Shown here: one piece after another, positions 1,558 to 56,953 of the stretch
Layout: each line of letters begins with the position of its first letter
How positions within the stretch are numbered: the first letter of the stretch is position 1
From: a virus
Reading direction: 5' to 3' (one strand)
IMG/VR virus record: IMGVR_UViG_3300020172_001601
Span: 64,198 to 128,197 of that record
Length of the DNA stretch: 64,000 bases
Notes under the pieces: model-generated
What the model saw: only the letters and a program-made list of their open reading frames with translations
The model's database searches: none
What the model was told of the DNA's origin: nothing
Program-made: the position numbers and the translations under genes

Positions 1558-2481
1558 ATGGCAGACCAACCTCCTGTTCCCCTCGCACTGTTTCCGGTGT
1601 ATTTGTTCGATCATGAATTCGAGCCGCCGAAGACGGGAACGTATTATCTCGTCACCAAGACGGGCATCTATCTGCACAAAGAAACCAAGGCGGGCAATGC
1701 ACTCGTCAAGGTCGAAGGTATTCCTTGGTTGCAAGAGCCGACCATTGAATTCCGTCTCAAGCTGCCGAAGATTCCGGGGAGCATCATCGGTCAGGCCCTT
1801 ACCTTCTTTCGGAAGGTGTTTCAACAGTACAAGTCCGAAGCGTATGTGACGCTTTTGTACAGTGCCAAGTTGAATCAATATCGTCTCTGGTGTCCGGCAC
1901 AGAAGGTGTCCGCTGCCAGCGTCAACTACGACCGCACCGACCAGCCTTCGTTCGAGGATCGTCAGTCCAACGATTGGCAGATGTGTGGCACGATTCACTC
2001 GCACTGTGACTTCAGCGCCTATCACTCCGGCACGGATATTGGCGACGAAGCCAGCTTCGACGGTATCCACATTACCCTGGGCCACGTCAATCGGGCGCAG
2101 TTCAGTATGGAAGCCAGTGTCGCCATCAACGACAAGCGTGAGAAGTTGGAACCAGAAAACTGCTGCTCCGGCGTTATCCGGGTTTCCAACAAGGAAGTTG
2201 TTTCTCGCCCATACATGACCTGGGGTGAAAGTTGCTTCTTCGATCTCGAATTGTCGGAAGAAGACGCACAACAGCTTGTTGCTGATACGGCCATCATCAA
2301 CGCCGAGTGGATGCCCAAGGTCGAACACAATGGCTGGCAGGGCAACCAGATGGGCTTCTACGGTGGTGGAGGCAACTGGAAGGGCAAGGGGTCAAAAAAA
2401 AACGGAAACGATGATCTCTTCGACCAAGGCCCCGATGAAGGTACTGCCGACTGGTGGCGAAATCAGAATTTCATCGACTAA
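1558..2481 (+). CDS. JAMM/MPN+ family metalloprotease (deubiquitinase-like)
   Basis: Exact JAMM motif H-x-H-x7-S-x2-D in HSHCDFSAYHSGTD; GGAG RBS 9 nt upstream; first gene after promoter at 1470-1498. Confidence 0.75.
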   Translation: MADQPPVPLALFPVYLFDHEFEPPKTGTYYLVTKTGIYLHKETKAGNALVKVEGIPWLQEPTIEFRLKLPKIPGSIIGQALTFFRKVFQQYKSEAYVTLLYSAKLNQYRLWCPAQKVSAASVNYDRTDQPSFEDRQSNDWQMCGTIHSHCDFSAYHSGTDIGDEASFDGIHITLGHVNRAQFSMEASVAINDKREKLEPENCCSGVIRVSNKEVVSRPYMTWGESCFFDLELSEEDAQQLVADTAIINAEWMPKVEHNGWQGNQMGFYGGGGNWKGKGSKKNGNDDLFDQGPDEGTADWWRNQNFID

Positions 2482-9320: not shown

Positions 9321-9405
9321 GCGCTCGACGCTGAATTGGTTGCAGCACCAGACTTTTAATCTGGTTTCCGCAAGGGACGTGTGGGTTCGAGTCCCACCGG
9401 GCGCA
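9321..9405 (+). tRNA. tRNA with anticodon TTT (Lys) carrying a 16-nt variable arm (85 nt)
   Basis: Acceptor GCGCTCG/CGGGCGC; anticodon arm CCAGA-CTTTTAA-TCTGG; T-arm GTGGG-TTCGAGT-CCCAC. Confidence 0.55.
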
Positions 9406-9430
9406 CTGTAACGAAATGAATGAACACTGA

Positions 9431-9860: not shown

Positions 9861-9950
9861 TGTGAGATACGCTAGTTGGTAAGCGGCGAAGCTGTTAACT
9901 TCGTGCAATCCGTCTTGAACGGTACGCAGGTTCGACCCCTGCTCTCACAG
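9861..9950 (+). tRNA. tRNA with anticodon GTT (Asn) carrying a 22-nt variable arm (90 nt)
   Basis: Acceptor TGTGAGA/TCTCACA; anticodon arm CGAAG-CTGTTAA-CTTCG; T-arm GCAGG-TTCGACC-CCTGC. Confidence 0.55.
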
Positions 9951-9956
9951 CTTTCT

Positions 9957-11400: not shown

Positions 11401-11467
11401 CTATGTTCATCAGGTCCGCTAACTTGGTGAACAGAAAGGTTGCGGCGAGTTTAGCGGCTCGTTTGAG

Positions 11468-11539
11468 GTTGTGTTCGTCTAGTGGTCTAGGATGCCGTCG
11501 TTGAAGACGGCGACATGGGTTCAAATCCCATACACAATC
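11468..11539 (+). tRNA. tRNA with non-canonical anticodon loop (6 or 8 nt, contains TTGAAG)
   Basis: Acceptor GTTGTGT/ACACAAT; T-arm ATGGG-TTCAAAT-CCCAT; anticodon stem GCCGTC/GACGGC. Confidence 0.5.
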
Positions 11540-11556
11540 TCGCAACTGAATTTTAT

Positions 11557-11635: not shown

Positions 11636-11640
11636 CTCGA

Positions 11641-11708
11641 TTCGGGTTAGTGTAACGGTAGCACGGAGCCGTCAAAGGCTCCAGAGTGGTTCGACTCCAC
11701 ACCCTTAT
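11641..11708 (+). tRNA. tRNA-like gene, family member 1 of 3 (shared D-arm TAGTGTAACGGTAGCACG), anticodon-position loop only 6 nt
   Basis: T-arm AGTGG-TTCGACT-CCAC; stem GGAGCC/GGCTCC with loop GTCAAA. Confidence 0.4.
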
Positions 11709-11716
11709 CACAATAT

Positions 11717-12180: not shown

Positions 12181-12957
12181 CTGAAACATTTAACCTTTGG
12201 AGAAATACTATGGTGCGTCTTTGGCTCGAAACTGTGCGGATTTAGACCAACAGGTAGGTTACACCTGGGGCATTACTTCTCGGTGATTCAACCGGGACAA
12301 GCTGGGTGTACCGTACTGGTGGCAAACTATCATGCACCGGAGGTAAAGAATCTGGAAGTATCCGTGAACGCCTTACGGCAATACGGTGTCCAGACCATAG
12401 TGATTCAGAAGGACGTGTTTGACGCTGAGTTGTTCTTCCGACTATTGACGCTCGCTAAAATGGGCGACTTGAGCCGGATGACACAATTCAAGTCAACAGA
12501 AGAGGACGATAGGACTGGCCAATTGTTGACCTACCCTGTTCTCATGGCGCATGATGTTGCGGGTTACTCCGAAGTCATTGTGGGCCTGGATCAGAAGCAG
12601 CATTTGGAATATGCCAGAAAGCTGTTGAGAAAATACAACAGTGTATATGGCACGACATATCCAATCCCGATAGCGAATATCGTGGTGGGACGTGTCAAAG
12701 ATTTGCGTGACCCGACGAAGAAAATGTCGAAGTCATCACCACAAGGATGTTTATTCCTTGATGATAAGGTTGATGATATTCAACAAAAGATTCGGAAAGC
12801 GACCGCAGATGAAGAGGGCCTGAATAACTTGAAGTTTTTGTATGGGGAGTTTGTAAGAGAAACGCCTCCAACAAGTAATCAAGAACTAAAAGAAAAGCTG
12901 GCCGATGGTTTGGTGAAATGCTTTGCAAGCTGTAGTGGCACAGCATCCGGCTCTTAA
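12160..12957 (+). CDS. trpS: tryptophanyl-tRNA synthetase-like (short; no canonical start codon before the HIGH region)
   Basis: FRPTGRLHLGHY (HIGH region) at 12241-12276 lies upstream of first ATG/GTG; LTYPVLMAHDV and KMSKS present; frame opens at 12160 after TGA; 5' end abuts tRNA-Thr, 3' end overlaps tRNA-Lys. Confidence 0.6.
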   Translation, partial: VRFSQAALKHLTFGEILWCVFGSKLCGFRPTGRLHLGHYFSVIQPGQAGCTVLVANYHAPEVKNLEVSVNALRQYGVQTIVIQKDVFDAELFFRLLTLAKMGDLSRMTQFKSTEEDDRTGQLLTYPVLMAHDVAGYSEVIVGLDQKQHLEYARKLLRKYNSVYGTTYPIPIANIVVGRVKDLRDPTKKMSKSSPQGCLFLDDKVDDIQQKIRKATADEEGLNNLKFLYGEFVRETPPTSNQELKEKLADGLVKCFASCSGTASGS

Positions 12958-22409: not shown

Positions 22410-23657
22410 ATGCAGGTCAATTATCGTGTTTCAGCATCGGGCTATCCTGTTTACCATGTTCAAATGAAAGATGCCTCAGTATGTGAGGCGCATATCGTGT
22501 CTAACTGTGGGTCTGCCCACGAAGACGCTGATTCTTGGGGCGTGGCACACTTCCTGGAGCATATGTGCTTCCAAGGAACTCCCACTAAGAACAAACATCA
22601 AGTAAGCCGTGAACAGTCCTTGATTGGTTCGTACAACGCATACACAAACCAATTCAATACTGTCTATCACTTCGACGCACTTAACGAAGACTTTGAGAAA
22701 GGTTTTGTTCTTCTTAAAGAAGCCGTCTTCGATTCTTGTTATCCTGAAAAGGAATTCGAGAAGGAAAAGAGTGTTATTGTCGAAGAGTGGAGGATGTATG
22801 ACAATTATCCTTCCGAACACTTTTCTGACTATGTGATCGAGAAGTGCTTTGGGGCCGAAGAAGGCCACCCAATCATCGGCACAGAAGAGTCTATTCGGGG
22901 CATGAATCCCGAAAAGCTGCACAGATTCAGAAACAAGTGGTACGGCAAAAACAATATCTTTGTTGTTATTGTTGGTAACTTGGATTTTGAAAAGGTGATG
23001 GAAGTCGTTGACAAAACACTCCCGCCAGCACCAGAAGTAGAAACCAGCCCTGTATGTTTGAACGGCGTCTTTGCAGATCAACCGAAGTACACTTTCGAGA
23101 CTGATCGCTTTGAACAAGCTGCATTCGGCATGGTTCGCAAGTGGTCATCGCCAAAAGAGGTTTACAAGAACCGCTATATTGCGAGCTTCTTTTCCTCTGC
23201 TTTGTCTAAGTATATGTACGAGTATATTCGAGACGACCTGGGCTTGTGCTATGGTGTCTGGAGCAGTCGCTTCCGTCACTTCGATAATTCCAATTTGATG
23301 ATCTCGATGCTCACCAATAATGGATACTTGGAGAAGGCCGAAACTGAACTGGCGAATTTGTTTTCCAAAATTAAATCAGAGGGCTTCCCGAACGAAGTCT
23401 TTGAGATTGCCAAGAAGAGTTTGACTTATAACCAAGTCAAAACGCTTGATAACGTGGGCGGCATCGCTGGCTCAGTGGTTTTTGGTGTGCTTGGCTCGTC
23501 TGACAAAGACTGGTTCTTGACTGAAGGACAAAAGGGCATGGACCCTGTTTGGCTCAAGTCTGTGGCCGCACAACTGACCCAGGAAGACCTGAAGGAATTT
23601 GCTAACACTTGGCTCGGCGACTTCACGAAGTTCGCTATGGTTTCAACCAAGAAGTAA
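22410..23657 (+). CDS. M16 (pitrilysin/insulinase) family zinc peptidase
   Basis: HFLEHMCFQGT contains the inverted zincin HxxEH motif. Confidence 0.65.
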   Translation: MQVNYRVSASGYPVYHVQMKDASVCEAHIVSNCGSAHEDADSWGVAHFLEHMCFQGTPTKNKHQVSREQSLIGSYNAYTNQFNTVYHFDALNEDFEKGFVLLKEAVFDSCYPEKEFEKEKSVIVEEWRMYDNYPSEHFSDYVIEKCFGAEEGHPIIGTEESIRGMNPEKLHRFRNKWYGKNNIFVVIVGNLDFEKVMEVVDKTLPPAPEVETSPVCLNGVFADQPKYTFETDRFEQAAFGMVRKWSSPKEVYKNRYIASFFSSALSKYMYEYIRDDLGLCYGVWSSRFRHFDNSNLMISMLTNNGYLEKAETELANLFSKIKSEGFPNEVFEIAKKSLTYNQVKTLDNVGGIAGSVVFGVLGSSDKDWFLTEGQKGMDPVWLKSVAAQLTQEDLKEFANTWLGDFTKFAMVSTKK

Positions 23658-27314: not shown

Positions 27315-27524
27315 TTGACAAGTCTGATTTGTGACCTATGCTTCAAGCAGGAGGCCACAATGAAAGTGATATGTGCTTGGTGCAAAAAAGATATGGGGCA
27401 AAAGGAACCGTTAGAAGATGATTTGATCTCTCACGGTATTTGCCCCATTTGTGCTTCTGCTATTGAGGCAGAAATACATACTCTTCAGGATATTTGCCCT
27501 GTGGGTTATTGCGATCCACAATAG
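27315..27524 (+). CDS. small Cys-rich protein
   Basis: CDLC..CAWC..CPIC motifs. Confidence 0.3.
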   Translation: MTSLICDLCFKQEATMKVICAWCKKDMGQKEPLEDDLISHGICPICASAIEAEIHTLQDICPVGYCDPQ

Positions 27525-28374
27525 GCAGAAATGGTACACCCGACTTTCCAAATATCGTGAAGTCGCCGCTCTTAGCGTGTACTCGACTGCCATAGGAGCC
27601 GTTGATGTTATTCATAAATGCCCTCAGTTCTGTGGCAGCAATCTTTCCATCCCCGTTCGGGTCGATGGCACTACTCTTCTCAGCCATAGCGTTGAATATC
27701 TTTGCCATGATATTTCCTTGAACATATGCAGCGCTTGTCTCGCTTGCCGATGAAGTAGCAAATATGGTTATGAGTTCTTGCTGGCGAGGCGACAAACTTC
27801 CAATATCAGGAAGCCCGGCACTCGCATAGCAACTCAGTTGCCACCAGAATATCTTCTGATTGTTCTTCTCAGCAATATCGGCGATGACCTTGAGGACATC
27901 TGATCTGCGTCCCATGTTGTCTAAGCTGCCACCAGGGAAACCGTGTCCAATAGTGAATAGAATCAATGTGTCGCCCGGTGTTGCATCGGTCTTGATATAC
28001 TGGTTCAGATATTGTGACAATGTTTCAATGGAGTACATTCTATCGACGGTTTCTGGATCATTATTTTGGAAGCCCATATACCGACCATCTACGAAGTGGT
28101 TGCCGACCACCTTGATGTTCAGGCCCTTTTCAGAAGCCTTCTGAGCGGCTTTAATGGCTAGATTGGCATCGCCGTCAGCCATGTGTTCTCTGGAGTGCTT
28201 GATGCACAACAAGCGAATCTTGGGGGTTGGTGCTTCGGCACCGTAGTACCGAGTTTGCACCGTGGGCTGTTGAATAGAATTGACATTGCTACAGCCGACA
28301 ATGCCGAATATAAACACAAGCGGAAGTATCCACCCGAATAGGCGTCGATCCATCGTATACCTCATTTTGAACAA
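27460..28374 (-). CDS. lipoprotein, clan CD cysteine peptidase-like (C11/C13/caspase-like His-Cys dyad)
   Basis: Lipobox IVGCS after signal peptide; FTIGHGFPGG (His) and WWQLSCYASAG (Cys); one of three minus-strand genes in the window. Confidence 0.5.
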   Translation of the reverse strand: MFKMRYTMDRRLFGWILPLVFIFGIVGCSNVNSIQQPTVQTRYYGAEAPTPKIRLLCIKHSREHMADGDANLAIKAAQKASEKGLNIKVVGNHFVDGRYMGFQNNDPETVDRMYSIETLSQYLNQYIKTDATPGDTLILFTIGHGFPGGSLDNMGRRSDVLKVIADIAEKNNQKIFWWQLSCYASAGLPDIGSLSPRQQELITIFATSSASETSAAYVQGNIMAKIFNAMAEKSSAIDPNGDGKIAATELRAFMNNINGSYGSRVHAKSGDFTIFGKSGVPFLPIVDRNNPQGKYPEEYVFLPQ

Positions 28375-28414: not shown

Positions 28415-28807
28415 ATGGTAATCGTCGGTAGAATATCCTTAGTCGATCATCCTACGGCTGCTCACCTACAAGTTGGCACAATTCAGGGCAAAACCGTTGT
28501 TGTGGGTCGCCACTATGACGAAGGCACCTTTGGATTTTTCATTCCAAATGGGGCGATTGTGCCGGACAAGCTGGCTGATGAGATGTGGGTGAAGGGCAAA
28601 TTGTCCGGCAAAAACAAGGATCGGGTCAAAGCCAGGGAGATGCACGGCGTTTTTTCCGAAGGGCTGTTTTACGGCAGTCGGTACTTTGTGGTACAATCTG
28701 GAGAAAAGGTCTACATCGACACGCCAAGCTGGAACCCTGCCTGGGTTGAGGGTCAAGATGTAGCGAATGAAGTGGGCGTTCTTGAAAGTGGCCCACTATC
28801 AACTTAA
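28415..28807 (+). CDS. hypothetical protein
   Basis: 130-aa ORF. Confidence 0.4.
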   Translation: MVIVGRISLVDHPTAAHLQVGTIQGKTVVVGRHYDEGTFGFFIPNGAIVPDKLADEMWVKGKLSGKNKDRVKAREMHGVFSEGLFYGSRYFVVQSGEKVYIDTPSWNPAWVEGQDVANEVGVLESGPLST

Positions 28808-28850
28808 AATACTGAGTCAGTAGTCCATACATAAGGAGTAGTGCTTCAAT

Positions 28851-29189
28851 ATGAGTGAAACAATAACGCTCCCGGAGCCAAAAGAGAAAGTAGATAACAA
28901 GACTGATAATAAGACTAAGCGTCAACCGCCATATAACGTCATTCTGATGAATGACGACGATCATACGGTCGAATATGTCGTGACGTTGTGCCAAAAAATA
29001 TTTGGCTTTCCAATAGAGAAGGGTCTATTGAAAGCCAAAGAGGTTCACGAACAGGGTCGGTCTATTTTGTGGACTGGCGCTCTCGAATTGGCCGAGTTGA
29101 AGCAAGAACAAATTCACGCTGTTGGCAAAGACCCGCAGATTAAACGCTGCAAGGGTAGTATGACTGCGGTACTGGAACCGGCAGCGTAA
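28851..29189 (+). CDS. clpS: ATP-dependent Clp protease adaptor ClpS
   Basis: YNVILMNDDDHTVEYVVTLCQKIFGF...EVHEQG aligns with the ClpS core [24 protein letters not shown]...AVHYQG. Confidence 0.8.
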   Translation: MSETITLPEPKEKVDNKTDNKTKRQPPYNVILMNDDDHTVEYVVTLCQKIFGFPIEKGLLKAKEVHEQGRSILWTGALELAELKQEQIHAVGKDPQIKRCKGSMTAVLEPAA

Positions 29190-29199
29190 CAGGAGAACA

Positions 29200-29661
29200 A
29201 TGAGAGGAATATTGGTTTCGCTGGCCGTTGTATTCGGTTTTATAATCGTGGTCGCTCTCGTGTATCAAAAACCAAGCGAGCCACAACAGATTGCTGTTAT
29301 ATCAACAGAATCACCCATCCCCGCTCCCACACAAGTTGAGCCTCAAGTAAAAATAGATAATCCTCCGGCTGTTAAAATGCCGGAGCCAATGGTAATCACG
29401 TCATATAAAGACGTGAATCGCATTCCAGATGCGGGTCTTCGCACCTTTGTTCGCCGCAAGGCAGATTTTCGTCACGATAATGTTCTCTTCTTTGAGTGGA
29501 AGGGCATTTCTGGTGACAAGATGACTGGTGAGGTTAAAGACAAAAAATACACGATCACTTTGCATCCTGCACATACCGTCATGTTTGGACAAGAAGTTGT
29601 GCATCGCCAGATATTTGTGATTCCAGCTTCGTACCCTTATGTTTGCGAAGTCGCCAAGTGA
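29200..29661 (+). CDS. secreted or membrane-anchored protein
   Basis: N-terminal hydrophobic segment. Confidence 0.4.
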   Translation: MRGILVSLAVVFGFIIVVALVYQKPSEPQQIAVISTESPIPAPTQVEPQVKIDNPPAVKMPEPMVITSYKDVNRIPDAGLRTFVRRKADFRHDNVLFFEWKGISGDKMTGEVKDKKYTITLHPAHTVMFGQEVVHRQIFVIPASYPYVCEVAK

Positions 29662-33621: not shown

Positions 33622-34092
33622 ATGGACAAGGCGTTTGAATTTTTCCGTGACCAAATGCGAGGCATCAGGCATGGAGAAATCTCCACTGGCCTCATCGACA
33701 CAATCCGGGTGGAAGCATACGAGCAGCGATTGCCGCTCAAGCAACTGGCCTGGACCTCACCAGATAAAAACAACCGAATCCTAGTGTCACCGTATGACAC
33801 GGCTTTATTGGGAGCAATTGATCGTGCCATTAAAGCAGAAGGGTTCAACTCCTATGTTTTCTCCAAAACCCAGGTGGTAGTCAATTGTCCGGTTCGTAGT
33901 GGTGAAGATACAGAACGGGTGATCCAACAGATCAATAAGCTGGCCGAAGAAGCCAGAGTTGTGATTAGGAATATCCGAAAGAAGATTCGCCAAAAAGCCG
34001 AAGAGGATATAGACAAACCACTTCAAAAGTTGACGGATGAAAAGATCAAAGAAATCAATGATCTCGTTGACTACAAGGTGAAGTGCTTATGA
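33622..34092 (+). CDS. frr: ribosome recycling factor (RRF/Frr)-like
   Basis: GLIDTIRVEAYEQRLPLKQLA..ILVSPYD..IDRAIKA..ARVVIRNIRKK follows the RRF pattern. Confidence 0.7.
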   Translation: MDKAFEFFRDQMRGIRHGEISTGLIDTIRVEAYEQRLPLKQLAWTSPDKNNRILVSPYDTALLGAIDRAIKAEGFNSYVFSKTQVVVNCPVRSGEDTERVIQQINKLAEEARVVIRNIRKKIRQKAEEDIDKPLQKLTDEKIKEINDLVDYKVKCL

Positions 34093-36943: not shown

Positions 36944-37025
36944 GGGGGTGAACCCAAATGGTTGCGGGAACCGCCTTATAAGCGGCTTACAGTCAGATAA
37001 ACTGAGTATACAAGGTTCGATTCCT
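36944..37025 (+). tRNA. type-II-like tRNA (3-bp D-stem, 24-nt variable arm) with anticodon TAT by position
   Basis: Acceptor GGGGGTG/CACCCCT; anticodon arm CCGC-CTTATAA-GCGG; T-arm CAAGG-TTCGATT-CCTTG. Confidence 0.5.
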
Positions 37026-37331
37026 TGCACCCCTACTCAAAGTTGCAATGGGCAAGAACAACAAATACCATAAATTCCCTCCCCGCAAGCAGGTTCCTGT
37101 CGGCGGGGTTTGTCTTTTGTGTCAATGCAATAGACAAGTGCGAATGGCAGCACGACCCTTCGTTAAGGGCAAGTCGATTTCTCATGCCCTTGGTTTTCCG
37201 GCTGCGATGCCTTTGCTTTCTCCCGGAATGATATTCAAAGGCGTCAATAACTTGACAGGTGAAGAAGAATCATTCAAAGTACAATGTGTATTGATTTTGA
37301 ATCCAGAACGTAGTTCAGTAGAAAGAATAAA

Positions 37332-38240
37332 ATGAACATCACACGCATTGCTCCGTCGCCGACCGGCGATATGCACATTGGCACTGCCAGAACCGCATAT
37401 TTCAACTGGCTCGCAGCACGGGCCAGCGGTGGTAAGTTCATTCTTCGGGTGGACGACACCGATCAGAAGCGAAACGATCCAGCCTATACAGAAGTCATTC
37501 TGTCCACAATGAAGTGGCTAGGTTTGGACTACGATGAGATCGTCTTCCAGAGTTCCAGATTCGACGTATACAAGGCCGCAGCGGGCTTGTTGATCCATGA
37601 AGGCTGGGCCGTTCCAAAAGATGGAGCCACGGTTTTTAACTTGAAGAAGGACCATGTTTTTCCTTCTCATTGGAAGGACGAAATCAAGGGCGACATCAAG
37701 ATCAGCGATGATGACATATCCCATATGGATGGGATGGTTCTCATTAAGTCTGATGGGAGTCCATCTTATAACTTTTGTTCGATTGTTGATGATTTGCACA
37801 TGGGGGTCAACCTAATCATCCGTGGAGTGGATCATATAACAAACACAGCAAAGCAGGTGATGCTTTGGGATGTCCTCAATAGCGGACAGACGATACCAAG
37901 GTTTGCCCACCTGGGTCTTATTTGCATTGATGGAAAGCCTATGTCCAAAAGAGACGGGGCATCGAGCATGTTGAATTACATGAACGCCGGATATGATTCC
38001 GACGCCATGTTGAATTTTCTTGCACGCCTTGGTTGGGGGCCAACAAAGGACGACAAGTCCACAACCCTATTGCCGAGAGACAAGATGCTTGAAATGTTTC
38101 TAACTTCGGGTAAGATGAGGAGTCAGCCAGCTAGTTTCGATTCTGGCAAATTGGAGTCGTTCGACCGCAAGTACAAGGCCCGTAAGGGGACTTGGCGAAC
38201 GGGCGACAAGTTGATTTCTGACACTAACAAAGAGGCATAG
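37332..38240 (+). CDS. glutamyl-tRNA synthetase catalytic core lacking the anticodon-binding domain (GluQRS-like architecture)
   Basis: APSPTGDMHIGTARTAYFNWL (HIGH region), RVDDTDQKRN, KPMSKRDG (KMSKS); 302 aa, ends where GluRS anticodon-binding domain would begin. Confidence 0.7.
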   Translation: MNITRIAPSPTGDMHIGTARTAYFNWLAARASGGKFILRVDDTDQKRNDPAYTEVILSTMKWLGLDYDEIVFQSSRFDVYKAAAGLLIHEGWAVPKDGATVFNLKKDHVFPSHWKDEIKGDIKISDDDISHMDGMVLIKSDGSPSYNFCSIVDDLHMGVNLIIRGVDHITNTAKQVMLWDVLNSGQTIPRFAHLGLICIDGKPMSKRDGASSMLNYMNAGYDSDAMLNFLARLGWGPTKDDKSTTLLPRDKMLEMFLTSGKMRSQPASFDSGKLESFDRKYKARKGTWRTGDKLISDTNKEA

Positions 38241-38615: not shown

Positions 38616-38849
38616 ATGGATAATGAACAAGTCGTAGAGACAGAAAAGAAACCTCTGACACTCAGAGATGTATGCTTGGGAGTGTTGGGCGTATTCGTGA
38701 TTCTGGCGATATTTGCCTTGCCTATTATGTTTCTGATGAATTTCCTGTTACCAGTTTTCGGTGTAGAGCGGCAGATTGACTACCAGCACTCGTTGGCGTT
38801 TGCGGTTCTTCTGTTTTGCATGGGGCGTTGCTTCAGCCCAGCCAAGTGA
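38616..38849 (+). CDS. small membrane protein
   Basis: Two hydrophobic helices. Confidence 0.35.
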   Translation: MDNEQVVETEKKPLTLRDVCLGVLGVFVILAIFALPIMFLMNFLLPVFGVERQIDYQHSLAFAVLLFCMGRCFSPAK

Positions 38850-38850
38850 T

Positions 38851-38879
38851 TTTACAACTGAAGCAAATCAGGGTATAAT
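38851..38879 (+). promoter_or_regulatory. sigma70-type promoter TTTACA-N17-GGGTATAAT
   Basis: Supports ATG 38890 as the real start of the next gene. Confidence 0.5.
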
Positions 38880-38889
38880 CCGGGCTGTC

Positions 38890-39258
38890 ATGAAAAAAAC
38901 CGATGCCTACAAATTCTTGAATTCGTTGGTGGAAAAGTATCCGAGCGATGCGGCTCCGATGCTGATTGACATCATTGTGGACTATTTGCTGTTCCCAAAA
39001 GGTGACGGCACCAGTCCCCAACTTACTGGCATTGACCAAAAAGTTGCTGAAATGATGGTTGATTCGAGTCGCAAGATTGAGGCTGTGAAATACGTTCGGG
39101 AGCAACTGCAATGTGGTCTTAAAGAAGCCAAGGACTATGTTGAGCAACGAGTGTGGCCTGCTGGCGTCGGTCCTCAAAGTGAAAAGGCTTTAGAACTACA
39201 ATCCCGATATGTACAATCGGTTTTGGACAAAATTCGTGTTGATTATAACGTAGGGTGA
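38890..39258 (+). CDS. protein with ribosomal protein bL12 (L7/L12) C-terminal domain
   Basis: IEAVKYVREQLQCGLKEAKDYVEQ aligns with bL12 CTD [25 protein letters not shown]; N-terminal half unrelated. Confidence 0.5.
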   Translation: MKKTDAYKFLNSLVEKYPSDAAPMLIDIIVDYLLFPKGDGTSPQLTGIDQKVAEMMVDSSRKIEAVKYVREQLQCGLKEAKDYVEQRVWPAGVGPQSEKALELQSRYVQSVLDKIRVDYNVG

Positions 39259-40134: not shown

Positions 40135-41880
40135 GTGTCTGGTCAAATAACTCGAAAGGCAATGGTGATTACGATGGCTAACAAGAATCTATTCAAGTCT
40201 GAGCGTGGCTCAATTGTTCCAGCAACGGACGTTCTCAACGAAGCTGGTGGTGTTGCATACAAGATGAGTGCAAAGCAGGCCCTTGCGCAGTACGTCTGCA
40301 CTGGCTGCTTGAACGGCACCTACTACACGTCTGCCAAGACGCAACTGGACACTGTTCGTCAGTTGCTTACTGAAGTCGAGCCTGAGTTCCTTGGTCAGTT
40401 GGCTGTGTACTCGCACGAAAAGTCCTTCATGAAGGACTTGCCTGCTCTGTTGGTCGCATTCCTCGCATCCGACAAGGGTGCTGGTGGTGGTCCAACTACG
40501 GCTACGCAGGAGCGAAAGCTGAAGACGCTCCGTAAGGTTTTCCATCGTGTCATCGACAGCGGCAACATGCTGCGCAACTTTGTGCAGATGATCCGTTCGG
40601 CAGCATTCGGTCGCAAGTCATTCGGTGAAGTGCCTCGCAAGCTGATTCGTGACTGGTTCGAGAATAAGTCTCCGGCTGGTATTTTCTTCCAGAGCATTGG
40701 CAATAGCCCATCCCTGGCAGATATTATCAAGCTGACCAAGCCGAAGCCGAACACGCCTGAAAAGGCGGCTGTATTGGCGTATCTGCTTGGTGCAGAAACC
40801 GTTGACGGCGAAGATGGCAAGTTGCTTGTTCGCAAGTATCTTGACCGTGCCGACAAGCAGGTGAAGGTTGCGTACTCGCAGCCTTACGACAACCTGCCGG
40901 AAATCATTCGTGAATACGAAGCGTGGAAGAAGGACAAGAGCCTCCCGGTTCCTGCCATCAACTTCCGCTTCCTGGACAACGAGAAGCTGTCAACTGCTCA
41001 GTGGGCAGATATTGCTTCCAAGGCAAACTGGCTTACGACCCTGAAGAACCTCAACGCATATGCCGACCACGGCGTATTCGGCGTTGAAGGCATGACTGAC
41101 ATGATCGCCGCACGTCTCAGCAATGCTGATGAAGTGCGTAAGGTTCGGGTATTCCCATACCAGATCATGATGGCCTACCTCGCAACCGATACGGAAGCGA
41201 AAGTACCGCCCAAGGTCCGTAACGCCATTCAGGATGCTATGGAAGTGGCATGTGAAAACGTACCAGCGTTGGGAAAGGTTAAGTTCTTCCCGGACGTGTC
41301 TGGTTCGATGAGGAGCGCTGCTATTACGGGCGACCGTGGTTCGGCGACTTCTAAGGTTCGGTGTGTTGACGTGGCTGCTCTGTTCGCAGTGGCAATGCTT
41401 CGTCGCAACCCGGAAGCGGAAGTAATTCCGTTCGAGCAGACGGTTCGTGAACTTACACTGAACCCTCGTGACAGCATCATGACCAACGCTACTCGCCTCG
41501 CAGCGATTGGCGGTGGTGGAACCAACTGTTCGGCCCCACTTGCTTTGCTCAACGCAAAGAAGGATTGGTCGGCAGACGTGTTGGTGTATATTTCGGACTA
41601 TGAGTCCTGGGTGGATAGCACTGGCTACCACGCTGGTAATGGCAACGGTACAGCACTGCTCAATGAGTGGGTGAAGTACAAGAGCCATAACAAGAATGCC
41701 AAGCTGATTTGCATCGACTTGACCCCTCGTGCAAACCATCAGGTCAAGGAACGTGATGATATTCTCCAGGTCGGTGGATTCTCGGACAACGTATTCAACG
41801 TGATCGCAAGGTTCGTTGAAGGCGGCTGGTCGAAGGATTTTTGGGTCAAGGAGATTGAAAGCGTTCAACTGGATACTTAA
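40135..41880 (+). CDS. rsr: Ro60 ortholog (Rsr): TROVE domain plus vWA domain with MIDAS
   Basis: NEAGGVAY..LAQYVCTGCLNGTYY matches Ro60 N..GG...L..F..G..GTYY; VRVFPYQIMMAY; MIDAS DVSGSM; GGGGTNCSAPL. Confidence 0.85.
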   Translation: MSGQITRKAMVITMANKNLFKSERGSIVPATDVLNEAGGVAYKMSAKQALAQYVCTGCLNGTYYTSAKTQLDTVRQLLTEVEPEFLGQLAVYSHEKSFMKDLPALLVAFLASDKGAGGGPTTATQERKLKTLRKVFHRVIDSGNMLRNFVQMIRSAAFGRKSFGEVPRKLIRDWFENKSPAGIFFQSIGNSPSLADIIKLTKPKPNTPEKAAVLAYLLGAETVDGEDGKLLVRKYLDRADKQVKVAYSQPYDNLPEIIREYEAWKKDKSLPVPAINFRFLDNEKLSTAQWADIASKANWLTTLKNLNAYADHGVFGVEGMTDMIAARLSNADEVRKVRVFPYQIMMAYLATDTEAKVPPKVRNAIQDAMEVACENVPALGKVKFFPDVSGSMRSAAITGDRGSATSKVRCVDVAALFAVAMLRRNPEAEVIPFEQTVRELTLNPRDSIMTNATRLAAIGGGGTNCSAPLALLNAKKDWSADVLVYISDYESWVDSTGYHAGNGNGTALLNEWVKYKSHNKNAKLICIDLTPRANHQVKERDDILQVGGFSDNVFNVIARFVEGGWSKDFWVKEIESVQLDT

Positions 41881-44474: not shown

Positions 44475-47036
44475 ATGGGTTCGTTCAAAGATACGCTGCA
44501 ACTCCCGAAAACCGATATGCCCATCGCTGCCAACTTACCGGCCAGCGAACCCGCCGTTTACGCATCCTGGGGCAACGTCTATTCCCGCTTGAAGCGAGAC
44601 GGGAAGAACCCTTTCATTCTTCATGATGGCCCGCCGTATGCTAACGGCGATATTCATATCGGCCATGCTCTCAATAAAATCCTCAAAGACTTCGTTGTGA
44701 AGTTCCAATACTTCAACGGGCGAGCCGTCGAGTTTGTCCCCGGCTGGGACTGTCACGGACTTCCGATTGAATCGAAGGTTTATTCCATCATCCGAGTTGG
44801 CGGCGGCAATCCCAGCAAAGAGCCGTTGGAATTAGTCCAACGCATGTGTCGGAAATATGCCGGTGAGCAAATTGCTAAACAAAAAGAGCAATTTCAAACC
44901 CTGGGCGTAATCGCCGATTGGGAAAACCACTACGAGACGATGAGTCCGTGGTTTGAAAACATGATCTCTCAGCGACTTGCTGAATTGCGGGATCATGGAT
45001 ATTTGGTTCGCCGCAAGAAGCCTGTCTATTGGTCTTGGTCTTATGGCACTGCACTGGCTGAGGCAGAAGTCGAATATCGTGACCGAGTAGATAATTCGGT
45101 GTATGTCGTATTCAAAACTGATAAGTTCCCTTGGGGGCTTTTGGTTTGGACCACAACGCCGTGGACACTTCCGGCCAACGTCGCCGTGGCATTGAACCCC
45201 AAGATGAAATATCTTGCTGTTCGTGTGCGAGATTACAATCTCCCCGTGCTAGTAGCTGCCGATCTTGTCAAGACCTTGACAGATAAAGGAATCATTGAGC
45301 ATGTCTTTGACCTTTATAGTGCGCAAGGCGACGAGTTCAATGGTTGGCAATTTCAACATCCTGTTTATCCCGACCAAACCGTGCCGTGCGTAATGGCCGA
45401 CTTTGTGTCCGCTGATAGCGGCACTGGTTGTGTACATATCGCCCCTGGTCATGGAGAAGAAGACTATCGAGTAGGGTTGGCGAATAATCTTCCGGTCGTC
45501 ATGCCTGTTGACGGAACGGGCAGATACACCGAGGGCAAATACGAAGGTCAATGGATTTTTGATGAAACTGACGGTTCGTATAAAGAATACAACTCGAATC
45601 CCAATATCCTTGCTGATTTAAGGGAGCGTGGTCTATTGGTTCATACTGAGAAGATCACTCACAGCTATCCCTATTGCAGCCGATCTGGAACGCCGGTCAT
45701 CTTCCGTGCTACTGAACAGTGGTTCTTGGACTTGGACAAGATTCGCAATCTGATCTTGGGGCCGATGACTGCTATTGAGAATGTGCAGTTCTATCCAGAG
45801 CATTCCAAGAACCGTATGGTTCCGATGCTGGAGAACCGCCCTGACTGGTGCATCAGTCGCCAGCGAGTATGGGGCGTGCCGATCTTTGAAGGACCGGACA
45901 TTCTTGACGTATGGTTTGATTCAGGATTGACGTGGAACATCCTGGGAGATCGTCAGGCTGACGTTTATCTGGAAGGCAACGATCAGCACCGTGGATGGTT
46001 CCAGAGCAGCCTATGGCTGTCTGTGGCCCTTCAGGGCGTTGCGCCATACAAGAAGGTCATCACGCATGGCTTTGTTGTCGATCAAGACGGCAAAAAGATG
46101 GCTAAGTCCAAGGGCAATGTCGTGTCGCCATTGGAAGTGACTCAAAAGCAGGGAGCAGAAGTGCTTCGCTATTGGGTTGCGAGCATTGACTATACGAAGG
46201 ATGCGCAGTGCAGCCCGGAGATCATGAAGCGTGCTGCCGAGGGCCACAAGAAACTTCGTAATACTTTCAGATTCCTAGTGGCAAATATGCCCAAGGAATC
46301 TCCGTATAAGAACGACCAGAATATGGTTTTCCTGCCGGTCAATCGTTGGATTTACGAAAAGACTCAGAAGGTCTTTTCTGAAGTCCATCAGTTGTTTGCC
46401 GACAACCTGTTCCATGCTGGTCTGCAAAAGTTGACGGAGTATATCAATACTGATTTGAGCGGTATTTACATGAACGCCGTCAAAGACTGCTTGTATTGTG
46501 ATGCTGTCGATAGTGTGTCCCGAAAGAATGTTGTTCACGTCATGAGTAAAATCCTCAAGGCGATGATGACGCTTGTGGCTCCGTTGTTTACCTACACGGC
46601 GCAGGAAGTGTTCAATTATTGTCCTGAATGGGTGAAGGGTGACGCCAAGGATATTTTCGATCTTCAATACGAAGCATTGCCAGACTTGCCGCCACACTTG
46701 GCTCGGATGGACGAAGCGTATTGGAAAGAGGCGTTGTCCGCATTCCATACTGAGTTCGACAAGATCAAGACCGCAGGCAAGGCTCGTGATACTTTGGAAG
46801 TCGTTATTGAATCGACTTCTGGTGATACGTTCTTTGTCGGGGCTGAAGATTGGTTTGTCGTAAGTCATTGGGCATCACATCCTTCAACCTGTGAGGCCCT
46901 GGGGGAATTCTCGGTGGGCGACAAGGTTTATCGGATTGTCAAGAGTCAGAAGAATAAGTGCGAACGATGCTGGAAACGCAATGCAGAACAGGAGTTATGT
47001 CCTCGCTGTCTCGGTGTGGTGAATCCGCAGGTTTGA
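44475..47036 (+). CDS. ileS: isoleucyl-tRNA synthetase
   Basis: PPYANGDIHIGHALNKILKD (HIGH region), KMAKSKGN (KMSKS), C-terminal zinc finger CERCWKR..CPRC; 853 aa. Confidence 0.9.
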   Translation: MGSFKDTLQLPKTDMPIAANLPASEPAVYASWGNVYSRLKRDGKNPFILHDGPPYANGDIHIGHALNKILKDFVVKFQYFNGRAVEFVPGWDCHGLPIESKVYSIIRVGGGNPSKEPLELVQRMCRKYAGEQIAKQKEQFQTLGVIADWENHYETMSPWFENMISQRLAELRDHGYLVRRKKPVYWSWSYGTALAEAEVEYRDRVDNSVYVVFKTDKFPWGLLVWTTTPWTLPANVAVALNPKMKYLAVRVRDYNLPVLVAADLVKTLTDKGIIEHVFDLYSAQGDEFNGWQFQHPVYPDQTVPCVMADFVSADSGTGCVHIAPGHGEEDYRVGLANNLPVVMPVDGTGRYTEGKYEGQWIFDETDGSYKEYNSNPNILADLRERGLLVHTEKITHSYPYCSRSGTPVIFRATEQWFLDLDKIRNLILGPMTAIENVQFYPEHSKNRMVPMLENRPDWCISRQRVWGVPIFEGPDILDVWFDSGLTWNILGDRQADVYLEGNDQHRGWFQSSLWLSVALQGVAPYKKVITHGFVVDQDGKKMAKSKGNVVSPLEVTQKQGAEVLRYWVASIDYTKDAQCSPEIMKRAAEGHKKLRNTFRFLVANMPKESPYKNDQNMVFLPVNRWIYEKTQKVFSEVHQLFADNLFHAGLQKLTEYINTDLSGIYMNAVKDCLYCDAVDSVSRKNVVHVMSKILKAMMTLVAPLFTYTAQEVFNYCPEWVKGDAKDIFDLQYEALPDLPPHLARMDEAYWKEALSAFHTEFDKIKTAGKARDTLEVVIESTSGDTFFVGAEDWFVVSHWASHPSTCEALGEFSVGDKVYRIVKSQKNKCERCWKRNAEQELCPRCLGVVNPQV

Positions 47037-47920: not shown

Positions 47921-48511
47921 ATGACCGTAATACTTGACTTTTACCGTGATGAGGCGGCTTGGGATAAAACCAAGACTCCGAACCCTAGCGGCTACACACA
48001 TTTTGACATTGTGAGGAATTGGTCAGACGACCAATGGGAAGGCGTACACGATTTCATTCAGTGGGTCTTTCCACTCAAGGAAGAATCAGCATTCAATCCA
48101 GATGCTCCATTGTTGACTGACGAAGACATAGCGATTTTTCGGGCCGATGACGAATTGAAGCAAGCCTTGTTTCTTTCGTTTCATCGGTTCCTTCGTTTTT
48201 TGGGTCTTCGTTGTCGATACGATCAACCAACCAACAAATGGATCACAACTCCTGTCGCAGCCAATGAACACGGTATTGGCGACGAGTTTTTGACCAAAGC
48301 GGAAATTGAAGAAAAACAAAAGGTGTGGGCATATCCGAACCATAATTGGTTGAGGATCACACGCTGCCTGCACAGCTTGCGTCTCCTGGGATTGGAGTAT
48401 GCTGCTGATTCCTTTTTTGATTCACTGTGTAAGTTGTATGACGAGAACCGAGGCATTACGCCAGATACATTCAAGTATTGGCAAGACGCCGCACAAGGAG
48501 GATTAGAATGA
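47921..48511 (+). CDS. hypothetical protein
   Basis: 196-aa ORF. Confidence 0.4.
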   Translation: MTVILDFYRDEAAWDKTKTPNPSGYTHFDIVRNWSDDQWEGVHDFIQWVFPLKEESAFNPDAPLLTDEDIAIFRADDELKQALFLSFHRFLRFLGLRCRYDQPTNKWITTPVAANEHGIGDEFLTKAEIEEKQKVWAYPNHNWLRITRCLHSLRLLGLEYAADSFFDSLCKLYDENRGITPDTFKYWQDAAQGGLE

Positions 48512-56581: not shown

Positions 56582-56953
56582 ATGAAGCGTAATCCGATTG
56601 CCAACTACTGTAAGCAACAAGTAGAGGGCTGGGACAAGCTGCCAGAGTTCATGAATTTCGCCCCTCCTGGCGAAGAGAACTTTTGTTGCAGTTTTCTTCG
56701 TCGTGCTGACGGTATTCAAATGTTGGCGTCGGTGAAAGACCTGAATGCCCTTAATACCATCCATGTCTCTTTGGCTCCTATTCGAGATTGCCGCAAAGAC
56801 TGGACAGATGACGAACACAGCGGACACATATTCGATGTGGCCTTTGAAGTGGTTGAATCCTTTTTCCCCGGTCGAAGGTTTGCACGGCAACCTGATGATC
56901 CCCGCAGACCACAAGTGAAGCATTACTTCGCCATCCTGGAGGCCAATGAATGA
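56582..56953 (+). CDS. hypothetical protein
   Basis: 123-aa ORF. Confidence 0.35.
   Translation: MKRNPIANYCKQQVEGWDKLPEFMNFAPPGEENFCCSFLRRADGIQMLASVKDLNALNTIHVSLAPIRDCRKDWTDDEHSGHIFDVAFEVVESFFPGRRFARQPDDPRRPQVKHYFAILEANE

What the first reader, a model, noticed from the sequence alone, without database searches (positions are those of the whole stretch)
28851..29189. Phage-encoded ClpS (N-degron adaptor)
The ClpS core is clearly conserved: YNVILMNDDDHTVEYVV..VHEQG. A virus-encoded ClpS could redirect host ClpAP toward or away from N-degron substrates. It sits near an M16 peptidase, a clan-CD peptidase-like lipoprotein and the Ubl/JAMM module, so the window is enriched for proteolysis and tagging functions.
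Basis: partly seen in the sequence, partly recalled or inferred. Interest (0 to 1): 0.55.

Follow-up and report, generated by a model that had tools for sequence, protein, structure and literature searches.

The report
ClpS adaptor gene in huge phage
This is a real, well-conserved copy of the bacterial ClpS protein (which marks proteins for destruction by their first amino acid), carried by an uncultivated 390-kb phage that probably took it from its planctomycete host; ClpS genes have already been reported in jumbo phages, so it is a new example, not a new kind of thing.

Summary
The ORF at 28851..29189 (+, 112 aa) exists as described and is a genuine ClpS. Its Pfam PF02617 match has E=3.4e-15, and its AlphaFold model matches every solved ClpS (TM 0.8-0.95). 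It keeps N34, D35, D36 and H66, the docking residues E79/E82/K84, and a disordered 26-residue N-terminal extension.

The window belongs to a 390,142-bp contig with 49 tRNA genes, aaRS genes, RRF, L7/L12, a T4-type gp32 and RNase H, so it is a huge phage. Syntenic relatives of 299-603 kb carry the same gene under strong purifying selection (dN/dS 0.04-0.08).

The closest cellular ClpS proteins are almost all from Planctomycetota, mainly Gemmataceae (52-66% identity). The phage copies nest inside them, which points to capture from the host.

The gatekeeper position (E. coli M40) is Val here, against Tyr/Phe in all 57 high-GC Planctomycetota genome-bin (MAG) copies. Val is not unique to phages, however.

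The most likely mechanism is docking on the host ClpA/ClpC-type unfoldase, which switches or extends its N-degron substrate choice. This is inferred, not shown.

Phage ClpS was already noted in jumbo phages (Iyer et al. 2021) and is annotated in PA5oct, Atu_ph07 and GAP32. Verdict: new member of a known kind, modest interest. The claim that the window is enriched for proteolysis is weak; the window is mainly a translation-gene island.

The parts
28851..29189 (+). clpS coding sequence (112 aa plus stop)
   Evidence: ORF list. Pfam PF02617 E=3.4e-15. PDB ClpS chains E=2.5e-8. AF2 model matches ClpS structures with TM 0.8-0.95.
28834..28839 (+). Shine-Dalgarno-like AAGGAG, 11 nt upstream of the ATG
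   Evidence: Read directly from the sequence.
28782..28810 (+). Sigma-70-like promoter match (TTGAAA-17-TAAAAT, 10 of 12). This is weak evidence.
   Evidence: Consensus scan. The number of such sites in the region is not above the shuffled expectation.
28851..28928 (+). N-terminal extension (residues 1-26), predicted disordered, ending in the KRQPP junction before the core
   Evidence: pLDDT is below 50 for residues 1-20. The MSETITLP start and the PP junction are conserved in phage and Gemmataceae homologues. In E. coli the extension is threaded into the ClpA pore (PMC9663308).
28893..28916 (+). 12-nt tandem duplication inside the extension (GATAACAAGACT / GATAATAAGACT, giving DNKT-DNKT)
   Evidence: Sequence. 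It is present in the window and L087 only; relatives L003 and L004 have one copy.
28950..28979 (+). N-degron pocket motif N34-D35-D36-D37-H38-T39-V40-E41-Y42-V43 (E. coli [10 protein letters not shown]). V40 sits at the gatekeeper position.
   Evidence: Ungapped alignment to E. coli ClpS. Column statistics.
29046..29048 (+). H66 codon, the alpha-amino ligand of the N-degron in E. coli ClpS
   Evidence: Alignment. H in 72 of 77 phage-clade sequences, against D in 45 of 57 cellular Planctomycetota sequences.
29085..29117 (+). Helix alpha3 segment E79-LAELKQEQIH89, the unfoldase N-domain docking surface (E79, E82, K84)
   Evidence: E79, A81, E82, K84 and H89 are invariant, or within one sequence of invariant (E82 76 of 77), in 77 phage-clade and 57 cellular sequences. 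The equivalent acidic residues stabilise ClpA binding in E. coli.

Best explanation
The gene encodes a functional ClpS-family N-recognin carried by an uncultivated huge phage (390 kb). It was most probably captured from a Planctomycetota (Gemmataceae-like) host and has since been kept by a broad group of 200-600-kb phages. During infection the protein would dock by its invariant alpha3 surface on the N-domain of the host's ClpA- or ClpC-type unfoldase. It would bind proteins with a bulky hydrophobic N-terminal residue in its pocket and hand them over for degradation by ClpP after its disordered N-terminal extension is pulled into the pore. Like E. coli ClpS, it would also act as a specificity switch, lowering degradation of other ClpA substrates such as ssrA-tagged chains. 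Its pocket entrance has Val at the gatekeeper position, where most planctomycete ClpS have Tyr or Phe. It probably therefore recognises a different or wider set of N-termini than the resident ClpS. Shown here: family membership, fold, residue conservation, phage context, purifying selection and planctomycete affinity. Inferred: partner binding, substrate delivery, altered specificity and benefit to the phage.
For: Identity: Pfam ClpS E=3.4e-15. The alignment to E. coli ClpS is ungapped and keeps N34, D35, D36, H66, E79, E82 and K84. The AF2 model has the order beta1-alpha1-alpha2-beta2-alpha3-beta3 with a disordered extension. It matches solved ClpS structures, with rmsd 0.9 A to M. smegmatis ClpS and 1.3 A to AtClpS1, and TMt 0.78-0.88 for most E. 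coli ClpS chains.

Phage context: the contig is 390,142 bp with 49 tRNAs, gp32-type SSB and RNase H PHROG hits, and aaRS genes, RRF and Ro60. Syntenic relatives of 299-603 kb and an IMG/VR contig carry the same gene. More distant phage-like contigs also carry ClpS.

Selection: dN/dS is 0.04-0.08 among phage copies with dS of 0.2-2.

Origin: nearly all of the best 80 genome hits are Planctomycetota, mostly Gemmataceae, Limnoglobus or Fimbriiglobus, at 45-70% identity. In a neighbour-joining (NJ) tree the phage-context sequences fall in one 77-leaf clade that contains no high-GC MAG sequence and is nested in a ladder of planctomycete sequences.

Docking surface: E79-A81-E82-K84-H89 is invariant (E82 in all but one sequence) in both phage and cellular sets.

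Pocket: V40 occurs in 73 of 77 phage-clade sequences, against Y or F in 57 of 57 high-GC MAG sequences. The gatekeeper controls N-degron selectivity in E. coli (Met40) and in Arabidopsis ClpS1 (Arg).

Switch function of ClpS and the role of the extension: PMC9663308.
Against: No binding or degradation data exist for any phage ClpS that I could find.

The partner unfoldase was not identified. No Clp ATPase Walker motifs were found in the window or within 6 kb of 90 clpS loci. The rest of the 390-kb genome could not be read, so a phage-encoded partner is not excluded.

Three pocket positions differ from E. coli (T38->H, M40->V, M62->A).

All NCBIfam ClpS equivalog models score far below their cut-offs (best 44 bits against 117).

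Val40 is not a phage invention. A V40/H66 ClpS sits on a 60% GC cellular-looking contig, and a phage-like contig carries F40/H66.

The tree is neighbour-joining on 89 columns without support values.
Confidence: 0.6

Rival explanations
1. The protein is a decoy or inhibitor rather than an adaptor. It occupies the N-domains of the host ClpA/ClpC unfoldase and slows its ATPase, which protects phage proteins (or ssrA-tagged phage translation products) from degradation. Delivery of N-degron substrates would not be the selected function.
For: E. coli ClpS inhibits degradation of ssrA-tagged substrates and suppresses ClpAP ATPase activity (PMC9663308). The docking helix is the most invariant part of the protein. 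The gene lies in a translation island with RRF, tRNAs and aaRS genes.
Against: The alpha-amino ligands N34, D35 and H66 and the pocket residues are as strongly conserved in the phage clade as the docking helix: N34 and D35 in 77 of 77, H66 in 72 of 77, V43 in 75 of 77 and V65 in 73 of 77. A pure N-domain blocker would not need these.
Confidence: 0.2
2. The phage ClpS works with a phage-encoded Clp unfoldase or ClpP located elsewhere in the 390-kb genome, forming an autonomous viral degradation system instead of hijacking the host enzyme.
For: Some jumbo phages encode ClpP (PMC7824862). Only 64 kb of the 390 kb could be inspected.
Against: The docking helix is identical to that of cellular planctomycete ClpS, as expected if the host unfoldase is the partner. 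The window contains no Clp_N, AAA_2 or ClpP domain. [quoted passage not shown]
Confidence: 0.1
3. The gene is a passenger: a recently captured host gene with no role for the phage, or host DNA joined to the phage by misassembly.
For: The protein is 52-66% identical to Gemmataceae ClpS and has the same N-terminus, MSETITLP.
Against: The gene is kept at the same position in phages whose neighbouring genes have diverged to 45-90% identity. dN/dS is 0.04-0.08. Synonymous sites are saturated against the Gemmataceae gene (pS 0.92). The window has 48% GC, against 58-72% in the high-GC planctomycete loci. The same sequence occurs on three independent contigs.
Confidence: 0.03
4. The protein is an L7/L12 C-terminal-domain-like ribosomal or translation factor, not a protease adaptor. 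ClpS and the L7/L12 C-terminal domain share a fold, and the gene sits in a translation island.
For: The fold search also returns L7/L12 structures at low rank (E 0.01-0.2). A Vibrio phage homologue is annotated 'ribosomal protein L7/L12/ClpS-like adaptor protein'.
Against: All 36 structural matches at E<=0.001 are ClpS chains. The ClpS-specific NDD...H motif and the docking residues are present. A separate L12-like gene exists at 38776-39258.
Confidence: 0.03

Closest known systems
E. coli ClpS (YljA; PDB 1MBU, 2W9R, 3O2B), N-recognin adaptor of ClpAP
   Same: Both are about 106-112 aa with a roughly 26-residue disordered extension ending in a PP junction, followed by a beta-alpha-alpha-beta-alpha-beta core. 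Residues 17-93 align without a gap (29% identity in the structural alignment). N34, D35, D36, V43, V65, H66, E79, E82 and K84 are identical.
   Different: T38->H, M40->V (gatekeeper) and M62->A. The alpha3-beta3 loop is 5-6 residues longer. The gene is not next to clpA. The protein is encoded by a phage and belongs to a planctomycete-type subfamily.
Cellular ClpS of Planctomycetota (Gemmataceae, Limnoglobus, Fimbriiglobus; e.g. MFN4259891.1)
   Same: 52-66% identity over the full length. The N-terminus MS(E/D)T(I/L)TLP is the same. The motifs NDDDH, AELKQEQIH and GSM(T/S)A are invariant. Both are stand-alone genes without an adjacent Clp ATPase.
   Different: Cellular copies have Y40/D66 (42 of 57) or F40/H66 (11 of 57), together with L47 and T76. 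The phage clade has V40/H66, C47, W74 and G76. Phage genes sit in 36-52% GC DNA, against 58-72% in the high-GC cellular loci.
ClpS genes of cultured jumbo phages (Pseudomonas PA5oct group, Agrobacterium Atu_ph07, Sinorhizobium Phosso, Cronobacter GAP32, Yersinia fHe-Yen9-04, Vibrio 2.275.O, Erwinia Kaldavass), noted by Iyer et al. 2021 (PMC7824862)
   Same: All are small ClpS-domain proteins encoded by phages of 284-490 kb. They were already interpreted as adaptors that bring targets to the host ClpAP. PHROGs holds two such families, phrog_27368 and phrog_15940, which the window protein matches.
   Different: These are proteobacterial-type ClpS. The window protein finds none of them by tblastn at E<=1e-3, so it represents an independent capture from a different host phylum. 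None of them, as far as my searches show, has been characterised experimentally.
ClpS variants with altered gatekeepers: Arabidopsis ClpS1 (Arg; PDB 7D34), C. crescentus M53A (PDB 3G1B, 3G3P) and Synechococcus ClpS2
   Same: The residue at the E. coli M40 position differs from Met. In these proteins that residue sets which N-terminal residues are accepted. The AF2 model superposes on AtClpS1 at 1.3 A.
   Different: The residue here is Val. The specificity of a Val gatekeeper has not been measured.

Membership tests
ClpS (Pfam PF02617, ATP-dependent Clp protease adaptor) | Sequence match to the family profile above the curated threshold | tested here: met
   56 bits against a gathering score of 23, E=3.4e-15, covering profile positions 1-69 of 80.
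ClpS (Pfam PF02617) | ClpS fold: three helices packed on a three-stranded antiparallel sheet | tested here: met
   The AF2 model (core pLDDT 78-87) has E28-33, H40-51, H55-68, E70-76, H78-91 and E106-110. All 36 Foldseek hits at E<=0.001 are ClpS chains, with TMt up to 0.95.
ClpS (N-recognin function) | Residues that hold the alpha-amino group of the N-degron (E. coli N34, D35, T38, H66) | tested here: met
   N34, D35 and H66 are identical. Position 38 is His, invariant in all 199 aligned planctomycete-type and phage sequences and able to form hydrogen bonds. That His replaces Thr functionally is inferred.
ClpS (N-recognin function) | Hydrophobic pocket with a Met gatekeeper (E. coli M40) and M62, V43, V65 | tested here: inconclusive
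   V43 and V65 are kept. The gatekeeper is Val and position 62 is Ala. Other functional ClpS proteins also lack Met here, for example Arg in AtClpS1. The pocket is therefore plausible, but its specificity is unknown.
ClpS (adaptor function) | Surface that docks on the ClpA/ClpC N-domain (E. coli E79, E82, K84) | tested here: met
   All three residues are identical and lie in the invariant AELKQEQIH helix. The role of K84 rests on my knowledge of the Zeth/Guo 2002 structures.
ClpS (adaptor function) | Disordered N-terminal extension long enough to reach the unfoldase pore, with a Pro-rich junction | tested here: met
   The extension is 26 residues, with pLDDT below 50 for residues 1-20, and has a KRQPP junction. 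The requirement is described in PMC9663308.
ClpS (adaptor function) | Physical binding to a Clp unfoldase and stimulation of N-degron substrate degradation | not testable with these tools
   This needs biochemistry or at least a complex model. The structure tool folds single chains only.
NCBIfam ClpS equivalogs (NF009563, NF000670 and others) | Score above the equivalog cut-off | tested here: not met
   The best score is 43.9 bits against a cut-off of 117, and all ten models are below their cut-offs. These models are lineage-specific, so the result shows that the protein is outside the modelled lineages, not outside the ClpS family.
clpS-clpA operon (proteobacterial arrangement) | clpS immediately upstream of clpA | tested here: not met
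   No Clp-type Walker A motif occurs in the window or within about 6-8 kb of clpS in the 90 loci searched. This feature is typical of Proteobacteria and does not define the family.
Huge/jumbo phage | Genome over 200 kb with phage replication or structural genes | tested here: met
   The contig is 390,142 bp. It has a gp32-type SSB and RNase H, 49 tRNAs, and relatives in IMG/VR. No capsid or terminase gene lies inside this window, so virion genes were not seen directly.

The most novel reading that the evidence does not exclude
The phage ClpS carries a pocket entrance (V40/H66 with C47, W74 and G76) that reads a different N-terminal code from the host's own ClpS (Y40/D66 or F40/H66). On this reading, infection rewrites the host N-degron rule. 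Possibly acting together with the phage M16 endopeptidase, which would create new N-termini, it would channel host proteins into the host Clp protease and feed amino acids to the phage's own translation island of 49 tRNAs, aaRS genes and RRF.
Probability: 0.12. Interest if true: 0.7.

Novelty: new member of a known kind. Interest (0 to 1): 0.3.

Why it matters
The finding adds an independent, well-populated lineage of virus-encoded ClpS. More than 90 sequences from 200-600-kb phages carry it under strong purifying selection. This shows that control of the N-degron pathway is a recurrent need of very large phages across host phyla, not a curiosity of a few proteobacterial phages.

It also gives a host clue (Planctomycetota, Gemmataceae-like) for a group of huge phages that have no cultured representative.

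Finally, it provides natural variants of the pocket entrance (Y/D, F/H, V/H) that could be used to study how ClpS specificity is set. No function has yet been demonstrated for any phage ClpS, so a simple binding and degradation experiment would be new.

Tried and rejected
1. A megablast of window 20-40 kb against 50,697 phage records matched only a tRNA-Arg. A tblastn of the ClpS against the same set found nothing. There is therefore no close cultured relative.

2. Two look-ups of other window proteins, intended to annotate more of the contig, failed because my start codons differed from the recorded gene calls.

3. I searched for a Clp ATPase next to clpS in the window and 89 loci using the Walker A motifs G[ED][PSA]GVGKT and GP[TS]GVGKT. 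There were no hits, so the partner remains unidentified.

4. A literature search for Clp systems of Planctomycetes found nothing useful.

5. I first read Val40 as a phage-specific innovation, since it occurs in 73 of 77 phage-clade sequences against 0 of 57 MAG sequences. I rejected that strong form after finding a V40 ClpS on a 60% GC cellular-looking contig and an F40 ClpS on a phage-like contig.

6. I considered M16 peptidase and ClpS as a conserved gene pair. M16 lies within 8 kb only in the closest relatives (L004, L005, L087) and not in L003, L090, L091, L092 or L094.

7. I wanted to measure the pocket on the AF2 model, but coordinates are not exposed.

8. The promoter and terminator scan around the gene gave nothing above the shuffled expectation.

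Full report
**Observation**

The ORF exists exactly as reported: ATG at 28851, stop codon ending at 29189, + strand, 112 aa. An AAGGAG ribosome-binding site lies 11 nt upstream. The quoted motif, YNVILMNDDDHTVEYVV...VHEQG, is present.

The match is not a chance resemblance.
- Pfam ClpS (PF02617) scores 56 bits against a gathering score of 23, with E=3.4e-15.
- E. coli ClpS chains in the PDB match at E=2.5e-8 over residues 17-93 without a single gap.
- 612 database proteins match at E<=1e-3, and all those listed carry PF02617.
- The ten NCBIfam ClpS equivalog models all fall below their cut-offs (best 44 against 117 bits). I read this as 'outside the modelled lineages', not as 'outside the family'.

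**Anatomy of the protein**

The alignment to E. coli ClpS is ungapped from residue 17 to 93, so E. coli numbering applies directly.
- Kept: N34, D35, D36, V43, V65, H66 (pocket and alpha-amino ligands) and E79, E82, K84 (the surface that docks on the ClpA N-domain).
- Changed: T38->H, M40->V (the 'gatekeeper' that excludes beta-branched residues in E. coli) and M62->A.

An AlphaFold2 model built on 82 homologues shows a disordered N-terminal extension (residues 1-20, pLDDT below 50). The core has the order beta1(28-33)-alpha1(40-51)-alpha2(55-68)-beta2(70-76)-alpha3(78-91)-beta3(106-110), with pLDDT 78-87. In a Foldseek search of the PDB, all 36 hits at E<=0.001 are ClpS chains. The rmsd is 0.9 A to M. 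smegmatis ClpS, 1.3 A to Arabidopsis ClpS1 and 2.4-2.8 A to most E. coli ClpS chains.

The extension is 26 residues long and ends in KRQPP. This is the Pro-rich junction described for ClpS extensions, which are threaded into the ClpA pore during delivery (PMC9663308). The window copy has a 12-nt tandem duplication in the extension (DNKT-DNKT, 28893-28916). It is shared only with the nearly identical L087 copy; the relatives L003 and L004 have one copy.

**Genomic context: a huge phage**

The exact protein is encoded on a 390,142-bp metagenomic contig (ENA ERZ25042327 NODE_1) and on two further contigs.

The window holds the following.
- 49 tRNA genes by ARAGORN and 44 by Rfam.
- An 853-aa class I Ile/Leu/Val-type aaRS, a MetRS, a GluRS/GlnRS-like gene and a Trp/TyrRS fragment.
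- RRF, an L7/L12-like gene and a Ro60/TROVE protein.
- A T4 gp32-type SSB, RNase H and an M16 peptidase.

Genes are short and almost all lie on one strand. No capsid or terminase gene lies inside the 64 kb.

Syntenic relatives carry clpS at the same place: a 602,679-bp contig (L003), contigs of 299,534 and 462,616 bp (L004, L005), and an IMG/VR contig (L087). More divergent phage-like contigs also carry a ClpS of this type:
- L090: 299 kb, 36% GC.
- L091: 146 kb, in IMG/VR.
- L092: 210 kb.
- L094: 46 kb.
- The P0114 contig: 46 kb.

RRF lies within 5 kb of clpS in five of these lineages. The M16 peptidase is nearby only in the closest relatives.

**Selection**

Among phage copies with dS between 0.2 and 2, dN/dS is 0.04-0.08. 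Against the Gemmataceae gene, synonymous sites are saturated (pS 0.92). The gene is therefore an old, maintained part of these phage genomes and not a fresh passenger.

**Origin and probable host**

A scan of one genome per species (GTDB) returned 132 relatives. Of the 80 kept, almost all are Planctomycetota, mainly Gemmataceae, Limnoglobus, Fimbriiglobus and Urbifossiella, at 45-70% identity. The few labelled Alcaligenaceae, Neisseriaceae, Bacteroidales or Nitrospirales are MAG contigs and are probably binning errors.

The N-terminus MSETITLP and the motifs NDDDH, AELKQEQIH and GSMTA are shared with these cellular proteins.

In a neighbour-joining tree of 199 sequences (89 core columns, rooted on E. 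coli, no support values), all sequences with a verified phage context fall in one 77-leaf clade. That clade contains no high-GC MAG sequence and is nested in a ladder of planctomycete sequences. The simplest reading is capture from a Gemmataceae-like host followed by vertical spread among these phages. This also makes Planctomycetota the likely host phylum.

In the planctomycete loci clpS is a stand-alone gene. No Clp ATPase motif was found within about 6-8 kb in the 90 loci searched, or in the window. I could not determine whether the partner is ClpA or ClpC. ClpS uses ClpA in Proteobacteria and ClpC in cyanobacteria, actinobacteria and plastids.

**What differs between phage and cellular copies**

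Column statistics for the 77 phage-clade sequences against the 57 high-GC MAG sequences show two patterns.
- The docking helix (E79, A81, E82, L83, K84, Q85-H89) is invariant or nearly invariant in both sets.
- The pocket side differs. Position 40 is V in 73 of 77 phage-clade sequences and Y or F in 57 of 57 cellular ones. Position 44 is V against I, position 47 is C against L, position 74 is W, and position 76 is G against T.

By helical periodicity, positions 40, 43/44 and 47 lie on one face of alpha1, and 59, 62 and 65/66 lie on one face of alpha2. These faces bound the pocket (inference; the pocket is described as bounded by beta1, alpha1, alpha2 and the alpha3-beta3 loop).

Positions 40 and 66 co-vary across the family: Y40 always occurs with D66 (69 of 69), F40 mostly with H66 (32 of 39), and V40 mostly with H66 (83 of 89). 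This argues that the two residues act together at the pocket entrance.

I first took V40 to be a phage innovation, but that is too strong. A V40/H66 ClpS lies on a 60% GC cellular-looking contig next to a transposase, and an F40/H66 ClpS lies on a phage-like contig. The fair statement is that the phage clade and its nearest cellular sister share a Val gatekeeper that most planctomycete ClpS lack.

**Mechanism**

The best-supported model is that the phage protein docks on the N-domain of the host ClpA/ClpC-type unfoldase through the unchanged alpha3 surface. It would bind N-terminal hydrophobic residues in a pocket with a smaller gatekeeper, and it would be engaged through its extension so that substrates are handed to the protease.

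As in E. coli, it should also act as a specificity switch that reduces degradation of ssrA-tagged and other direct substrates.

Shown here: family, fold, residue conservation, phage context, selection and phylogenetic affinity. Inferred: binding, delivery, altered specificity and the benefit to the phage. I put about 0.6 on the adaptor/switch model.

The rivals are:
- A pure decoy or inhibitor (0.2). This is weakened because the pocket ligands are as conserved as the docking helix.
- A phage-encoded partner elsewhere in the genome (0.1).
- A passenger gene or misassembly (0.03).
- An L7/L12-like translation role (0.03).

**Comparison with what is known**

Phage-encoded ClpS is not new. [quoted passage not shown]

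A tblastn search with E. coli ClpS finds annotated ClpS genes in the following phages, all of 284-490 kb:
- the Pseudomonas PA5oct group
- Agrobacterium Atu_ph07
- Sinorhizobium Phosso
- Cronobacter GAP32
- Yersinia fHe-Yen9-04
- Vibrio 2.275.O
- Erwinia Kaldavass

PHROGs has two such families, which the window protein matches. The window protein does not match any of these phage genes by tblastn. It is therefore a separate capture from another host phylum. I found no paper that tests a phage ClpS experimentally.

The M16 peptidase is real (22410-23657). The 'clan-CD lipoprotein' (27460-28374, minus strand) has no Pfam or PHROG support beyond weak EF-hand hits. The JAB domain hit (1558-2481) is below threshold (24.3 against 25 bits) and lies 26 kb away. 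The window is better described as a translation-gene island into which a proteostasis gene is embedded.

**Verdict**

The gene is a new member of a known kind, a ClpS of a huge phage. Its added value is the planctomycete affinity, which gives a host clue, and a natural series of pocket-entrance variants. Interest is modest (0.3).

Noticed in passing
window 6128-37036: There is a very large tRNA array: 49 genes by ARAGORN and 44 by Rfam, all on the + strand. It includes two genes with abnormal anticodon loops (11467-11541, 11639-11711) and several over-long ones that may carry introns or long variable arms (9861-9951 Asn, 91 nt; 9321-9406 Lys, 86 nt; 36944-37036 Ile-tat, 93 nt)..
   Followed up: partly
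window 44475-47036, 56950-58599, 37332-38240, 12283-12957, 33622-34092, 38776-39258: A translation-gene island: a class I Ile/Leu/Val-type aaRS (853 aa), MetRS (549 aa), a GluRS/GlnRS-like gene (302 aa), a Trp/TyrRS fragment (224 aa), RRF, and an L7/L12-like protein.
   Followed up: partly
window 40135-41880: A Ro60/TROVE-like protein with a vWA domain (Pfam vWA_Ro60 E=7e-16; phrog_850). Ro60 proteins usually act with Y-RNA-like small RNAs. Rfam at gathering threshold found none nearby.
   Followed up: partly
alignment of 199 ClpS sequences (window residues 40 and 66): In planctomycete-type ClpS the gatekeeper and the alpha-amino ligand co-vary: Y40 with D66 (69 of 69), F40 with H66 (32 of 39), V40 with H66 (83 of 89). 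Most cellular Planctomycetota ClpS thus lack the 'canonical' His66.
   Followed up: partly
L093 8001-8327 (ENA ERZ28533575 NODE_17767): A V40/H66 ClpS of the phage-like type lies in a 60% GC, cellular-looking neighbourhood (ECF sigma factor, PfkB, methyltransferase). A DDE transposase lies about 0.8 kb upstream. This could be the donor lineage, or a transfer back from phage to cell.
   Followed up: partly
L018, L020, L022, L030, L037, L072, L082 (genome-contig loci): MAG contigs labelled Neisseriaceae (33% GC; it also carries a homologue of the phage nucleoside deoxyribosyltransferase-like gene), Alcaligenaceae, Bacteroidales and Nitrospirales carry planctomycete-type ClpS. These are likely binning errors or mis-binned phage contigs.
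   Followed up: partly
window 27460-28374 (-): A 304-aa predicted lipoprotein (signal peptide ending in IVGC) with a weak EF-hand-like motif. It is conserved in L003 (70%) and L087 (93%).
   Followed up: partly
window 28415-28807 and 29200-29661: These are the immediate neighbours of clpS. The upstream 130-aa protein weakly resembles the N-terminal part of phage RNA ligases (phrog_968, E=3e-5). The downstream 153-aa protein has an N-terminal membrane helix, starts 11 nt after the clpS stop, and is conserved with clpS in L003, L004 and L087 (53-95% identity). Its function is unknown.
   Followed up: partly
window 1558-2481: A Prok-JAB domain hit just below the Pfam cut-off (24.3 against 25 bits).
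   Followed up: no
window 47921-48511; L092 4636-5115; L094 2886-3371: An OGFr_N-domain protein recurs in several of these ClpS-carrying phage contigs. L092 also carries an AcrVA2-like gene.
   Followed up: no
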